This document shows positions 1 to 3,814 of a stretch of 4,038 nucleotides of DNA, piece by piece. The position numbers and the translations under genes were made by a program. How positions within the stretch are numbered: the first letter of the stretch is position 1; each line of letters opens with the position of its first letter. The stretch comes from a virus (lineage: Duplodnaviria > Heunggongvirae > Uroviricota > Caudoviricetes), in IMG/VR virus record IMGVR_UViG_3300029227_000077; one strand, 5' to 3'. The notes under the pieces are model-generated. The model worked only from the letters and a program-made list of their open reading frames with translations, was not told where the DNA came from and searched no databases.

Positions 1-2883
1 CGCAAACAGCCGCTTCAGGAACACATCGTTCATGAACAACTGATTCCCCTGCGCCACAAATAACGGCGTGGTGTTGCCGTCCTCCGGGTTAATCATCGCA
101 ATACGGTCAGCCAGCAGCAGTATGTTGCTCAGGGGCTGGCCATCAGTATCCTCAATCCCCGCTCCAATACCGGCAACATAGGGTATGCCATTTTTTGTTT
201 TCTGTACCTTCAGCATGTAAAGTGCAGCAAGGTCATCATTTGTGTCCTTCTGCACGCGCTGTATCTGCTGTATGGTGGCGCTCTGGTCCTCCAGCGTTTT
301 ACTGACCGTCTGTGTGATTTCATTGCGGGTTTCTGTGATGGTGGTCTTCATCTCCGCCATCTCGTCCTTCAGCTGACTGTTGTCAATCTCTGCCCACAGC
401 GCCTCTGCCAGATGCGTTTTTCCTATCTTTTCCCGGAAAAACTCCAGATAGCCCGCAGCATCATTGCTCGCCCGTCCACTGGCTTCCACAAAAGCAGATT
501 TACCCACCAGGTTGACGCTGCGCACATAAAACCAGAAATCCTTTCCGGGCTTAATGTGCGGACCGGAGACACTCCACTGACTGCCGGTCCCCAGATAACG
601 GGCAGAGGTTTCCACCTGTGCGGCGTCTGCAATTTTTGCCTCCGAAAACCAGAACTCAAACTGCACCGTCGGGTCATAAATGGTCAGTTTCGGGACTGCC
701 GTTATCTGAAAATACCCCGGCGTCAGTTCAACACCGACAGGCGCTGCCGGTGCGTTAATCCGGAACGTGGTGGTGGCGGGTTCGCCCTGCTGGCCATAGC
801 TGTTAATCGCCCTGACCGTCAGGGTGTATTCCCCGGGAGGCAGGCCACTGAAACGGTGCTCCGTATCGGCAGTGATGGCGGTGGTCAGCAGGCGGCTGTT
901 CTCACCGCTTCCACTGGTCAGGCGCAGACTGAAGCGCACGCCCTTCACCACCCGCGGCGTGTCCCATTTCGCCAGCGCCAGATACTGGCCGTCAGCTGCG
1001 CTCACCTCCACCGTCAGGTGCTGCACTGCCGGTGGGATAACGCTGTTCAGGGTGCCTGACTGCGGCTCAAAGCGGGCCCCGTTATCCACGATGGCTTCTT
1101 TTTCCGGTACGTGCTGCACTGCCGTGATGGCAAAGGTGCCGTCCGTGTTTTCCCGGATGGAGACACAGCGGAACAGGCGACGGCGCAGTGACGGCAGGGA
1201 GAGTCCCCACACCCCGTATGTCTCCACACCATCAGGCAGGGTACTGACCTGTATCCGGTCCGGCGCGGGGTGTGCGGTGATGTCCACACTCACCGGCTTA
1301 CCGCTGCCGTTAATCAGGTTCACCGTGGCGGCACCTGTCCCCGGAAGTGTCACTTCACGGTCCAGCGTCAGGGTGCGGGTGGCAGCATCAATGGACAGGA
1401 CACGTCCGCCGGTCAGGGTCCCGGCATAGTCATTATCACAGATTTCAATAATGTCACCGGGTGTGTGCCGCAGCCCCTGTGACCCGAGTGTGAAATCCAC
1501 CGTCTGCGTTTCCAGCAGTTCGGTCTTTATCACCCACAGCCCGGCACGGTGGGCCTGACCGCGGCTGGTACAGCCGAACGCGTCCATCTTCAGCAGGTTG
1601 CGTCCGTAGCGCAGTATGGCTTCCGGGTCTTCCACCAGTTCCGTGGAGGTCTGCCAGCCGTTCTGCGGGTCGGTGTAATTCACCTCCACCGCCGTGTGCC
1701 GGTCCTTCAGGGCACTGAAGCTGTAGCGGAACCCCACGCCGTTATCATCCACCACCACATCGCTGTTCGTGTACGGCCACACCACATCCGACGTGCGGTC
1801 CTGAACGAACGTCAGCGTCTGGCCGTTCCATACCGGCATACAGCGCATCGCCGAGCAGAAATCACTGAGAACGTCCCACGCCTTACGCTGTTGTGCCAGG
1901 TACGCATTAAAGGTCATCCGCGGCTCTGTGCCCCCGAAACCATCCGGGACCGTCTGGTCGCAGTACTGCCCGATGGCATACAGCGCCCACTTGTCCACAT
2001 CCGCCGCCCCCAGGCGTTTTCCCATCCCGTAGCGCGGGTGAGTCAGCATGTCCCACAGGCACCAGGCCGGGTTGTTGCTGTATGCCGGTTTCAGACTGCC
2101 GTCCCAGATACCACTGTACGTGCGTTTTTCCGGGTCATAGTTTGACGGCACCTGGATGATGCGACCGCGGATATGGTAGTTCACCGTCATCTGCTGGCCG
2201 CCGAACTGCTCCGCATCCACCTGCAGCCCCACAATGGCCGTGTTCGGGTAGCACTGTTTCACATCGATGATTTCGGTGTATGACGACCAGAGCGTCTTAT
2301 TCTGCAGCTGGTCCGTGGTGCTGTCCGCCGTCTCCCTGACCATCCGGATGTTAAAGGGCCGGGGCGGCAGATTATCCAGAATCACCGACGCCAGGAACTG
2401 CGAGGTGGTCTTGCCGTTAATGGTGACATCCTTTTCTGTCACCCAGTTACCGTTACGCTGTAACTGAATCAGCAGACGGACAGAGGACGGATTACGGTCA
2501 CCCTTTGACGTGGTCTCCACCAGTGACTGCACCCCGAAGGTCACCCGCAGGCGGTCAATGTTCGCGGACGTAATGGTGCGCGTCACCGGCTTTGCCTTCG
2601 TCACTTCCACACCCAGTACAGTTTCAGCTCCGGAGGACTCAAAGCCTTCCGGTGGTGTCTGCTCCTGCTCCCCGGCACGCCAGACCGCTGTCACACCGTG
2701 TATCACGGGATTACCGTCCGTGTCCGTCAGCGGGGTTTTGTTCACCAGGATACTCTGCAGTCCCTTCACCGGACCTTCCACCGGTCCCTCACCAATGGCA
2801 TCAATCACGCTCATCATCTGCGTGGATTTGAGATTGTCTTTCGCCTCGCGCGGTGTGTGCGCCTTACCGCCACCTTTACCCAC
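1..2883 (-). CDS. J: Tail tip / host specificity protein J (central tail fibre), N-terminal 961 codons; C-terminal receptor-binding part lies beyond the left edge of the window
   Basis: Continuous minus-strand reading frame from 2883 to position 1 with no in-frame stop (all 961 triplets checked by eye). It is missing from the ORF track only because no stop codon falls inside the window. The N-terminus reads (V/M)[38 protein letters not shown]..., matching lambda gp[23 protein letters not shown]... as I recall it. At the window edge the translation reads ...[65 protein letters not shown], matching the lambda gpJ region ...[18 protein letters not shown]. Start is GTG at 2883..2881, 5 nt downstream of SD GGAGAGGGGG; the nearest upstream in-frame stop is TGA at 2991..2989 with no in-frame ATG in between. 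The plus-strand ORFs listed in this interval are antisense artefacts. Confidence 0.92.
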
Positions 2884-2888
2884 TCGAT

Positions 2889-2898
2889 CCCCCTCTCC
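2889..2898 (-). promoter_or_regulatory. Shine-Dalgarno sequence for J (GGAGAGGGGG, 5-nt spacer to GTG start)
   Basis: Minus-strand sequence caGGAGAGGGGGatcgaGTG read directly from the reverse complement of 2881..2900. Confidence 0.55.
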
Positions 2899-2923
2899 TG
2901 TCTGATGTCTGAATCTGTTTATG

Positions 2924-2957
2924 CCCAAAAAACAACAGGCACCCCGGAGGATGCCTG
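2924..2957 (-). terminator. Rho-independent terminator-like hairpin plus U-tract on the minus strand, immediately upstream of the J ribosome-binding site
   Basis: Minus-strand RNA 5'-CAGGCAUCC-UCCG-GGGUGCCUG-3' (9-bp stem including one G-U pair, 4-nt loop; plus coordinates 2936..2957) followed directly by UUGUUUUUUGGG (2924..2935). On the plus strand the same hairpin is preceded, not followed, by the A/T run, so it is directional for the minus strand. Confidence 0.55.
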
Positions 2958-2995
2958 TATCATGACTGAATAAAAATTCTGAATATCTTCACATT

Positions 2996-3023
2996 TTCAC
3001 AAACTGACTGTGGCGCGTATAAT
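2996..3023 (+). promoter_or_regulatory. Candidate sigma70-type promoter: -35 TTCACA (2996..3001), 16-bp spacer, -10 TATAAT (3018..3023); AT-rich upstream region 2969..2994
   Basis: Perfect -10 hexamer TATAAT and a 5/6 match to the -35 consensus TTGACA at near-optimal spacing, with an A/T-rich UP-like stretch upstream. Predicted transcription start is about 3030. It points away from J and toward I, antisense to the tail operon. Confidence 0.45.
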
Positions 3024-3029
3024 TTCGCT

Positions 3030-3128
3030 GCGTTAGTGTTTTTTCTGCCCGAGTAACAAAAACAACTCCTTAACATTAATCTTCATTTGTCTGTCCCCGC
3101 AGCTCCGCGATCACTGCGGGATTTTTTT
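3030..3128 (+). ncRNA. Candidate small non-coding RNA (~100 nt) defined by its own promoter and intrinsic terminator, antisense to the I-J intercistronic region of the tail operon
   Basis: Interval between the predicted start (~3030) and the end of the terminator U-tract (3128). The plus strand has no ATG here and only a 6-codon GTG frame with no SD. The sequence is AU-rich with one predicted internal stem (3037..3043 pairing with 3058..3064) before the terminator hairpin. Boundaries are predicted, not measured. Confidence 0.35.
3096..3128 (+). terminator. Rho-independent terminator on the plus strand (stem CCCGCAG/CTGCGGG, 11-nt loop, then A-TTTTTTT)
   Basis: 3096..3102 CCCGCAG pairs with 3114..3120 CTGCGGG (7 bp, 6 of them G-C), followed by A and seven T at 3122..3128. 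It lies 5 nt from the stop codon of I, which is on the opposite strand. On the minus strand the hairpin is not followed by a U-tract. Confidence 0.6.
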
Positions 3129-3133
3129 ATGTT

Positions 3134-3814
3134 TTATCCCTGTCGACCAATAACCACCACCTTTCCGTCTCCGCCTTCATCACGGGTGCTGATGTCCTGA
3201 GAGATACGTCGTGAACCAACCAGCATTTCACCGTAGGGCACCGGCATCGGGTTGCCCTGGGCAATCATGTTGTCCAGTGAGGAAAAATACGTGTTCTGTC
3301 TGCCGTTATCCGTTGCGCGGTAATCCGGTGTTTTTGCCTTCGGGGCCAGCATCTGTGCCACACCGCCCAGTATCATGCTGGCTCCAAGTGAAAACAGCAT
3401 CGTGGTGGCAGAAAAACCACCGGCTGCCAGGGCTGAACCCCATAACGCCATTGATGCTCCGGCCGTGAAGAAAGACCCCACAATGGCAGCTGCCCCCAGC
3501 ACAATCTGTAGTCCGCCCTTTCCGGCTCCGGCCAGTCGCGGCACAATATGGATAACCGTTCCCTCACCCAGTGGTTCGTGAAGGCGGGCATACACCGCCT
3601 CCGGTGCCGTATCCTCACCGGCAATGCGTATCTGGTACCAGCCTTCGTTCATCTGACGGCGGAATCCCGGCACCTGCAGCGACAGGGCGCGGATGGCTTC
3701 CGCCGCCGTGTTCACATACAGGCTGAAGCGGCGGCCAAATCGTTGTAAATCCCCGTGAAGGCAGATGCGTGCCAGTGGCGGTGACGCCAGACAGAATGCG
3801 TTCGTCGTTGCCAT
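3134..3814 (-). CDS. I: Tail (tip) assembly protein I
   Basis: ORF-track ORF of 226 aa. The translation MATTNAFCLASPPLARICLHGDLQRFGRRF...GWYQIRIAGED...VIHIVPRLAGAGKGG...QIVLGAAAIVGSFFTAGA...LFSLGASMILGGVAQMLAPKAKTP...DNGRQNTYFSSLDNMIAQGN...YGEMLVGSRRISQDISTRDEGGDGKVVVIGR is co-linear with lambda gpI as recalled (MA..H..PLASPGMARICLYGDLQRFGRR...GWYQVRIAGRD...IHIVPRVAGAKSGG...QIVLGAAAIAGSFFTAGA...LFSLGASMVLGGVAQMLAPKARTP...DNGKQNTYFSSLDNMVAQGN...YGEMRVGSRVVSQEIS..DEGDGGQVVVIGR) and of similar length. ATG at 3814..3812; stop TAA at 3136..3134. Confidence 0.92.
   Translation of the reverse strand: MATTNAFCLASPPLARICLHGDLQRFGRRFSLYVNTAAEAIRALSLQVPGFRRQMNEGWYQIRIAGEDTAPEAVYARLHEPLGEGTVIHIVPRLAGAGKGGLQIVLGAAAIVGSFFTAGASMALWGSALAAGGFSATTMLFSLGASMILGGVAQMLAPKAKTPDYRATDNGRQNTYFSSLDNMIAQGNPMPVPYGEMLVGSRRISQDISTRDEGGDGKVVVIGRQG

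What the first reader, a model, noticed from the sequence alone, without database searches (positions are those of the whole stretch)
2924..2957. Strong intrinsic terminator inside the tail operon, directly upstream of the J ribosome-binding site
On the minus (operon) strand, a 9-bp stem / tetraloop hairpin followed by UUGUUUUUU sits 25 to 60 nt upstream of the J SD and start codon. A terminator between two cotranscribed essential tail genes is unexpected unless transcription is antiterminated (lambdoid late transcription is Q-modified and terminator-resistant). It could act as an insulator stopping read-through into J in the lysogen, or as a stabilising 3' hairpin after processing. Together with the plus-strand terminator at 3096..3128, both ends of the spacer are insulated.
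Basis: partly seen in the sequence, partly recalled or inferred. Interest (0 to 1): 0.5.

Follow-up and report, generated by a model that had tools for sequence, protein, structure and literature searches.

The report
Terminator hairpin before tail gene J
A strong terminator-type RNA hairpin really does sit just before the tail-tip gene J of this lambda-like prophage, but lambda and many other phages carry an equivalent hairpin in the same gap, and the rest of the spacer is the already described small-RNA gene PasB, so the finding is real but largely ordinary.

Summary
The hairpin exists. On the minus (tail-operon) strand, a 10-bp stem (2958..2935, tetraloop UCCG, about -19 kcal/mol) is followed by UGUUUUUUGG, 51 nt before the J start codon (GTG 2883). 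It is unlikely to be chance.

It is not an oddity of this phage. Lambda has an unrelated hairpin plus T-tract in its 60-nt I-J gap. So do HK97/HK022-like, Serratia, Acinetobacter and T1-like phages. Lambda's late operon carries such hairpins in 5 of its 7 intergenic gaps of 30 nt or more.

The 250-nt spacer is long because it holds a plus-strand moron, the Hfq-dependent sRNA gene PasB. It has a promoter at 2996..3023, an RNA at 3046..3128 that is 81/83 identical to EPEC E2348/69 PasB, and its published northern probe matches exactly. The "plus-strand terminator" is therefore PasB's own terminator, not an insulator.

Best reading: this is an intra-operon intrinsic terminator. It stops unmodified RNA polymerase before J and is read through by Q-modified polymerase. 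Termination itself is inferred, not shown. A published genome analysis of phage L states that the roles of such terminators are unknown.

Verdict: a new member of a known kind, of low to moderate interest.

The parts
2935..2958 (-). Stem-loop of the intrinsic-terminator motif (10-bp stem, loop UCCG)
   Evidence: Conserved in 18 distinct variants with 98.9% of cells paired.
2925..2934 (-). U-rich tail UGUUUUUUGG following the stem
   Evidence: T-rich in all type-1 variants.
2884..2924 (-). J leader, with Shine-Dalgarno GGAGAGGGGG at 2898..2889
   Evidence: The leader is not predicted to be strongly structured.
1..2883 (-). Gene J (tail tip / host specificity), start GTG 2883..2881, runs off the left end of the window
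   Evidence: RefSeq annotation of a 98.3% identical locus. Pfam FNIII-A_GpJ, E 1.3e-41.
3134..3814 (-). Gene I (tail assembly protein)
   Evidence: Pfam Lambda_tail_I, E 1.3e-15. Annotation.
3046..3128 (+). PasB sRNA, as mapped in EPEC E2348/69 (83 nt), antisense to the tail operon. This is neighbouring context rather than part of the hairpin.
   Evidence: 81/83 identical to NC_011601 1466343..1466261. The published northern probe is the exact reverse complement of 3101..3123.
3096..3128 (+). PasB's own intrinsic terminator (stem 3096..3102 with 3114..3120, then A and U7)
   Evidence: Conserved in 72 distinct cassettes.
2996..3023 (+). PasB promoter, TTCACA-16-TATAAT (11 of 12 consensus matches)
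   Evidence: A -10 of the form nATAAT or TATCAT is kept across divergent cassettes.
2971..2995 (+). Conserved A/T-rich block upstream of the PasB -35, with CRP-like half-sites TCTGA-N6-TCACA at 2978..2993. It lies directly next to the hairpin.
   Evidence: Its function is inferred only.

Best explanation
The hairpin is a Rho-independent terminator on the tail-operon strand. It is the positional counterpart of the hairpin that phage lambda carries between I and J.

Proposed mechanism: RNA polymerase that has not been modified by the late antiterminator forms the 10-bp hairpin, pauses on the U-tract and releases about 45 nt before the J start. Such polymerase includes stray or read-in transcription in the lysogen, and any transcription running antisense through the PasB gene. 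J and the genes beyond it are therefore made only by Q-modified polymerase, which ignores the signal during lytic growth. In the read-through mRNA the hairpin remains as a stable structure at a segment boundary.

Shown: the motif, its conservation, its positional recurrence in unrelated phages, and the identity of the neighbouring PasB gene.

Inferred: termination in vivo, read-through by Q, and the benefit to the phage.
For: Motif quality and improbability by chance.

Within this lineage the stem is kept. 98.9% of cells are paired in 18 distinct variants. One pair switches C-G to U-A with U.G intermediates.

In a J-anchored sample blind to the hairpin, 94 of 103 loci have a terminator-like hairpin within 200 nt upstream of J, in three unrelated sequence classes: type 1 (33 loci), type 2 (39 loci) and lambda-type (22 loci).

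Unrelated hairpins with T-tracts fill the I-J gap in lambda/PhiR55_1, HK106-like phages, Serratia Rovert and Carrot, Acinetobacter Acba_16 and T1-like phi2013. In the HK106-like group, 62 distinct upstream contexts all keep GCCACC-TTCG-GGTGGC-T7. Families whose I-J gap is under 25 nt have none.

In lambda, 5 of 7 late-operon gaps of 30 nt or more hold such a motif, against 6 hits in about 22 kb of coding sequence. PhiR12_2, whose spacer is 98% identical to the window's, has them at D-E, E-FI and I-J with sequences different from lambda's.

The T-tract lies only on the operon strand, so the signal is directional.

In EPEC lysogens the tail genes are almost silent (baseMean about 5 to 15) while PasB is abundant (482 to 1082).

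The phage L genome paper describes intra-late-operon terminators and proposes this same role.
Against: There are no 3'-end or termination data for this site.

The prophage's Q gene and qut site are outside the window.

The T1-like lytic phage phi2013, which I do not know to use Q-type antitermination (own knowledge), has an analogous hairpin. The role therefore cannot depend solely on Q.

Five sodC-type spacers lack a J-proximal hairpin, so it is probably dispensable.

Covariation inside the lineage is thin. One pair covaries, 13 of 500 shuffles do as well, and the pattern looks like two alleles plus recombinants, including a C.A mismatch form.

Little operon-strand transcription exists in lysogens for the hairpin to stop.
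Confidence: 0.55

Rival explanations
1. The hairpin is mainly an mRNA stability or processing element. It would block 3'-to-5' exonucleases and protect the upstream V...I segment. Alternatively it would form a protective structure near the 5' end of a processed J mRNA, for example after RNase III cuts the 83-bp duplex that PasB can form with the late transcript. Termination would be incidental.
For: Lambda-type late operons place equivalent hairpins right after the abundantly needed genes D and E as well as after I and J. This resembles segmental mRNA stabilisation.

Q-modified polymerase would read through anyway, so during lytic growth only an RNA-level role remains (established knowledge of lambda Q).

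The late mRNA is perfectly complementary to PasB just upstream of the hairpin.
Against: All the independent versions carry a T-rich tail. An exonuclease barrier or a 5' stabiliser does not need one.

I is a low-copy product, so stabilising its 3' end brings no obvious benefit.

No processing data exist.
Confidence: 0.2
2. The hairpin is a partial attenuator that lowers transcription of J and downstream genes relative to upstream tail genes, even during lytic growth. It would act as a dosage device and not as an on/off gate.
For: The hairpin also occurs before the J-like gene of a T1-like lytic phage, where a TATAAT follows it.

Partial termination is one of the two roles suggested for intra-operon terminators in phage L.

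J is needed in only a few copies per virion (established knowledge).
Against: K and I upstream of the hairpin are also low-copy, so a dosage step at I-J is not obviously useful.

Lambda Q complexes read through terminators very efficiently (established knowledge).

sodC-type spacers do without it.
Confidence: 0.15
3. The hairpin is the 3' end of a small operon-strand RNA, carrying a hairpin plus U-tract Hfq-binding module. This RNA could be a transcript diverging from the PasB promoter region or a 3'UTR fragment of the I mRNA. It might act as an anti-PasB sponge.
For: A hairpin plus U6 is the canonical Hfq-binding 3' module. The upstream operon-strand sequence is fully complementary to PasB and its promoter. 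The hairpin is tightly linked to the conserved PasB promoter block in more than 100 loci.
Against: No operon-strand promoter reaches 9 of 12 consensus matches in the spacer. The best -10/-35 pair I could find by eye scores 7 of 12.

The stored parts of the EPEC RIL-seq tables list no E2348C_1436/1437 intergenic RNA.

Lambda and HK97-type phages have the hairpin without any PasB.
Confidence: 0.05
4. The hairpin is a functionless relic that marks a recombination or moron junction.
For: The I-J gap is a mosaic hotspot, with three spacer classes and shuffled PasB alleles.

The window's U.G pair looks like a crossover within the hairpin between a U-A allele and a C-G allele. The reciprocal C.A form also exists.
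Against: Unrelated sequences form a hairpin plus T-tract at the same place in many families, and gaps are absent where there is no hairpin. This argues for selection on the structure.
Confidence: 0.05

Closest known systems
Phage lambda I-J intergenic hairpin (NC_001416 15461..15484) and the other lambda late-operon intergenic hairpins (D-E, E-FI, J-lom, lom-orf401)
   Same: Same position between the I stop and the J Shine-Dalgarno, same strand, and the same form: a GC-rich tetraloop hairpin with a T-rich tail.
   Different: The sequences are unrelated. Lambda's sits 20 nt before J in a 60-nt gap with no sRNA gene. Here it sits 51 nt before J, and a 190-nt PasB cassette lies between I and the hairpin.
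Intra-late-operon Rho-independent terminators annotated in lambdoid genomes (phage L / P22-like; HK106 / HK022-like)
   Same: These are predicted terminators inside an operon that has a single antiterminated late promoter, with roles stated to be unknown. HK106 carries an annotated one just upstream of its I-like gene and an unannotated one before J.
   Different: They involve different genes and sequences. None has been tested at the I-J junction as far as the searched literature shows.
tR' and Q antitermination of lambdoid and Stx phages (StxS)
   Same: An intrinsic terminator downstream of PR' whose effect depends on Q modification.
   Different: tR' lies immediately after the late promoter and yields an abundant short RNA. 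This hairpin is about 20 kb downstream, and no RNA ending at it is known.
PasB sRNA and moron architecture (Pearl Mizrahi 2021; Zhu, Shabalina and Storz 2026; Juhala 2000 by recollection)
   Same: The neighbouring plus-strand unit is a promoter-gene-terminator cassette inserted between two genes that are adjacent in lambda.
   Different: The hairpin under study is on the opposite strand and is not part of the PasB transcript. Neither PasB paper mentions it.

Membership tests
Intrinsic (Rho-independent) terminator | Stable GC-rich stem-loop | tested here: met
   10-bp stem with 6 G-C pairs, -18.7 kcal/mol, z -3.3.
Intrinsic (Rho-independent) terminator | U-rich tract immediately 3' of the stem, on the transcribed strand | tested here: met
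   UGUUUUUUGG has 7 U in the first 8 nt. There is no T-tract on the opposite strand.
Intrinsic (Rho-independent) terminator | RNA 3' ends or transcript release at the U-tract | not testable with these tools
   An EHEC Term-seq data set exists (GSE143631, cited in PMC7547250), but no table is held in the library.
Antitermination-dependent intra-operon terminator of a lambdoid late operon | Lies inside a single late transcription unit in lambda gene order | tested here: met
   K-I-J order in the window. PhiR12_2, with a 98% identical spacer, has S-R-Rz-Nu1...I-J in one direction.
Antitermination-dependent intra-operon terminator of a lambdoid late operon | Read through when Q (or an equivalent) modifies RNA polymerase | not testable with these tools
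   Q and qut lie outside the window, and there are no expression data.
Positional homologue of the lambda I-J hairpin | Hairpin plus T-tract between the I stop and the J RBS in independent lineages | tested here: met
   Lambda, HK106-like, Serratia (two phages), Acinetobacter and T1-like phages. 94 of 103 J-anchored loci.
PasB sRNA gene (the adjacent plus-strand element) | Sequence identity to the mapped E2348/69 PasB, and a match to its northern probe | tested here: met
   81/83 identical. The probe is the exact reverse complement of 3101..3123.
PasB sRNA gene (the adjacent plus-strand element) | Own promoter and intrinsic terminator | tested here: met
   TTCACA-16-TATAAT, 11 of 12. Terminator at -12.6 kcal/mol followed by U7.
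PasB sRNA gene (the adjacent plus-strand element) | Hfq-dependent accumulation and target pairing | not testable with these tools
   Reported for E2348/69 only.
Rfam RNA families | Covariance-model match | tested here: not met
   No family matches the spacer at E up to 1. The only hit is a chance snoRNA match inside J. There are none in related loci.

The most novel reading that the evidence does not exclude
The hairpin may be one instance of a conserved 'gate' in front of the host-range gene J. Temperate and lytic siphoviruses alike keep such a gate. It would make J and its downstream cargo a separately controlled transcription or mRNA segment, and it would double as the crossover point at which host-range modules and morons such as PasB or sodC are exchanged.

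In PasB-carrying phages it might also cooperate with PasB. The PasB:late-mRNA duplex would be cut, and the hairpin would then cap the processed J message or an Hfq-bound anti-PasB fragment.
Probability: 0.12. Interest if true: 0.55.

Novelty: new member of a known kind. Interest (0 to 1): 0.25.

Why it matters
If the termination role holds, this is a concrete and widely distributed test case for why phage late operons keep internal terminators. The spacer it lies in matches about a third of complete E. coli genomes (1799 of 5426). A published phage genome analysis says the roles of such terminators are unknown.

It also fixes the annotation of this spacer. The long I-J gap is the PasB sRNA moron, and the hairpin is the ancestral-type I-J signal. 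That matters for anyone engineering J (host range) or reading prophage transcriptomes.

It does not overturn anything.

Tried and rejected
**Rfam.** Scans of the window at E up to 1, and of four related loci at gathering score, found nothing relevant.

**38-aa minus-strand ORF.** The ORF at 3076..2960 ends right at the hairpin, but it is not a gene. In E2348/69 its ATG is followed by TGA and the frame is shifted.

**Plus-strand terminator role.** The RNA after the stem on that strand is AUCAUGACUGAA, with no U-tract, so this is rejected.

**Operon-strand promoter in the spacer.** The scan found none at 9 of 12 or better.

**Evidence for an operon-strand intergenic RNA in EPEC RIL-seq tables.** There is no such entry in the stored parts.

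**Supplements.** The Tree 2014 supplements have no tail-gene entries. No Term-seq table is held for Sy 2020.

**Viral-contig scan with the Serratia Rovert J.** No relatives were found.

**Hairpin as part of the PasB cassette.** Rejected, for three reasons. Lambda and HK97-type phages have an I-J hairpin without PasB. 38 PasB loci carry a different hairpin (type 2). The type 1 / type 2 junction falls exactly between the PasB promoter block and the hairpin.

Full report
**1. What is in the window**

The window carries lambda-type tail genes on the minus strand.
- A C40 peptidase (K) runs off the right end.
- I spans 3814..3134 (Pfam Lambda_tail_I).
- A 250-nt non-coding spacer follows.
- J starts at GTG 2883 (Pfam GpJ FNIII-A) and runs off the left end.

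**2.

On the minus strand, ACAGGCAUCC-UCCG-GGGUGCCUGU (2958..2935) forms a 10-bp stem with a tetraloop. UGUUUUUUGG follows it directly.

The hairpin alone is -18.7 kcal/mol, and 1 of 200 dinucleotide shuffles folds as well. It is the best terminator-like site in the window. A stem of at least 9 bp with at least 5 G-C pairs and a T-tract arises anywhere on either strand in only 23 of 300 shuffled windows. Finding one in the single 250-nt spacer on the operon strand is therefore improbable by chance.

The stem is 10 bp, not 9.

**3. What the rest of the spacer is**

The plus strand has a near-consensus sigma-70 promoter, TTCACA-16-TATAAT at 2996..3023 (11 of 12). It also has a hairpin plus U7 at 3096..3128.

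The published northern probe for the Hfq-dependent sRNA PasB of EPEC E2348/69 is AATCCCGCAGTGATCGCGGAGCT. It is the exact reverse complement of 3101..3123. The mapped 83-nt PasB (NC_011601 1466343..1466261, between E2348C_1436 and E2348C_1437) is 81/83 identical to window 3046..3128.

A 2026 preprint describes PasB as embedded in an operon of phage structural genes and broadly distributed.

So the "plus-strand terminator" is the sRNA's own terminator. The spacer is long because a plus-strand (antisense) moron sits in it. Lambda has only 60 nt between I and J. Rfam has no model that matches.

**4. The hairpin is a positional feature of I-J junctions, not of PasB**

*Lambda.* Its 60-nt gap holds AAACCGCC-UGCG-GGCGGUUU followed by UGUCAUUUAU, 20 nt before the J start.

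*J-anchored sample.* In a sample chosen without regard to the hairpin, 94 of 103 loci have a terminator-like hairpin within 200 nt upstream of J. They fall into three unrelated sequence classes:
- the type seen here (33 loci);
- a symmetric hairpin, AAAACCCCGGUAUC-UGCUG-AUACCGGGGUUU, in 333 to 341-nt spacers that carry the same PasB cassette (39 loci);
- the lambda type (22 loci).

The exceptions are mainly five spacers in which an antisense Cu/Zn superoxide dismutase gene has replaced the PasB promoter.

*More distant tail modules.*
- HK106/HK97-like phages keep GCCACC-UUCG-GGUGGC-U7 immediately before J in 62 distinct upstream contexts, including several different upstream genes.
- Serratia phages Rovert and Carrot, Acinetobacter phage Acba_16 and the T1-like lytic phage phi2013 each have their own hairpin plus T-tract in a 45 to 77-nt I-J gap.
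- Families without such a motif have essentially no gap, 4 to 23 nt (Mannheimia, Burkholderia, Moraxella, Vibrio, Klebsiella).

*Across the late operon.* In lambda's operon from nu1 to the tail-fibre genes, motifs of this kind lie in 5 of the 7 intergenic gaps of 30 nt or more: D-E, E-FI, I-J, J-lom and lom-orf401. Six weaker hits lie in about 22 kb of coding sequence. PhiR12_2, whose spacer is 98% identical to the window's, has them at D-E, E-FI and I-J with sequences unlike lambda's.

**5. Conservation within the lineage**

Eighteen distinct variants keep the helix, with 98.9% of cells paired. Six pairs never vary. One pair alternates C-G and U-A with U.G intermediates, and 13 of 500 column shuffles do as well.

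The pattern fits two alleles whose 5' arm travels with the upstream block and whose 3' arm travels with the J leader. The window's U.G pair looks like a crossover in the loop, and the reciprocal C.A form exists at lower frequency. This is modest support for selection on pairing. The cross-family recurrence in section 4 is the stronger argument.

**6. Mechanism**

The most economical reading is an intrinsic terminator that acts on unmodified RNA polymerase and is bypassed by Q-modified polymerase during lytic growth.

The phage L genome paper states that intra-late-operon terminators are not unique and that "their roles are not known". It offers two possibilities: partial termination, or stopping spurious transcription that begins without antitermination.

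Three observations bear on this:
- The signal is directional, with a U-tract on the operon strand only.
- It lies downstream of PasB on that strand. It can protect J, not PasB.
- In EPEC lysogens the tail genes are nearly silent (baseMean about 5 and 15 for I and J) while PasB is abundant (482 to 1082).

None of this demonstrates termination.

The rivals are an mRNA-segment stabiliser or processing mark, a dosage attenuator, the 3' end of an operon-strand small RNA, and a functionless relic.
- The hairpins after lambda D and E favour the stabiliser.
- The T1-like case favours the attenuator.
- No promoter and no RIL-seq entry supports the small-RNA idea.

**7. Comparison and novelty**

The kind is known: internal terminators in antiterminated late operons, and moron-flanking terminators. 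The neighbouring gene, PasB, is known.

What appears not to be written down in the papers I could search is twofold. The I-J junction carries such a hairpin across many unrelated J-encoding phages, lambda included. And PasB cassettes sit between I and that hairpin. That is a tidy generalisation, not a surprise.

I rate it a new member of a known kind, interest 0.25.

**8. Limits**

- The family survey covers 14 tail-module families, not all phages.
- Loci L207 onward were retrieved with a pattern that fixes the outer stem, so they cannot speak to conservation of the outer stem.
- The terminator definition is a simple consensus.
- Q and qut were not examined.
- Statements about the efficiency of lambda Q read-through, the copy number of J and the moron concept of Juhala et al. 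(2000) rest on my own knowledge.

Noticed in passing
window 3018..3046 (+): The consensus -10 (TATAAT, 3018..3023) predicts a PasB start near 3030, giving a 99-nt RNA. The published 83-nt PasB starts at the equivalent of 3046, just after a conserved U-run (GUGUUUUUUC|UGCCC). The 83-nt form may be processed, or the mapped 5' end may be approximate.
   Followed up: partly
window 2978..2993: A CRP-like site sits in a block conserved across more than 100 loci, even where the PasB promoter differs. On the operon strand it reads AAATGTGA-AGATAT-TCAGAATT. Its centre is 60.5 nt upstream of the published PasB 5' end. PasB is reported to be higher in LB than in DMEM. No test was done.
   Followed up: no
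L078, L009 and others, I-J spacers of 333..341 nt: This is a second spacer class. It has the same PasB cassette, but after ...AGAATTTTTAT comes an unrelated block of about 190 nt. That block has a symmetric, bidirectional-looking terminator (GAAAACCCCGGTATC-TGCTG-ATACCGGGGTTTCTCTTT) about 104 nt before J. Rfam finds nothing in it.
   Followed up: partly
L031, L035, L016, L068, L087, I-J spacers of 848 nt: An antisense Cu/Zn superoxide dismutase gene (Pfam Sod_Cu, E 4e-32) replaces the PasB promoter. The PasB body and terminator remain downstream of the sodC terminator, so PasB may be made there as a read-through or 3'UTR product. No J-proximal hairpin is present.
   Followed up: partly
72 distinct PasB cassettes: PasB is a family with conserved ends and a highly variable middle. 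The conserved ends are the +1 region CUGCGUUA, the UUAAUCUUC box and the CCCGCAG...CUGCGGG-U7 terminator. The alleles are shuffled independently of the hairpin type.
   Followed up: partly
L335 (lambda) 6099..6116, 7163..7180, 18920..18935, 19612..19633: Lambda has hairpin plus T-tract motifs after D, E, J and lom as well as after I. PhiR12_2 has different sequences at the D-E and E-FI positions.
   Followed up: partly
L330 (T1-like phage phi2013) 811..829: A strong hairpin, AACCCGCC-TTGCG-CGGGTT followed by T8, lies between the I-like and J-like genes of a lytic phage. TGTATAAT follows it within 10 nt, which looks like a terminator-promoter pair.
   Followed up: no
L084, L090..L098, L104, L116, L119 (genome contigs): J and I-J sequences identical to E. 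coli prophage or lambda turn up in assemblies labelled Streptomyces, Shewanella, Pseudomonas, Neobacillus, Bradyrhizobium and others. Several are on contigs of about 48.4 to 48.5 kb, the size of lambda. This is most likely contamination of those assemblies.
   Followed up: no
window 737..717 (-): A second, weaker terminator-like site lies inside the J coding sequence (9 pairs, 4 G-C, tail GGTATTTTCA). It is also present inside J of PhiR12_2. It is probably coincidental.
   Followed up: no
window 3134..3814 (-): RefSeq and some phage records annotate I from an internal start (183 to 193 aa). The lambda-like 226-aa reading overlaps K, as in lambda and in the EcoCyc-based EPEC annotation.
   Followed up: no
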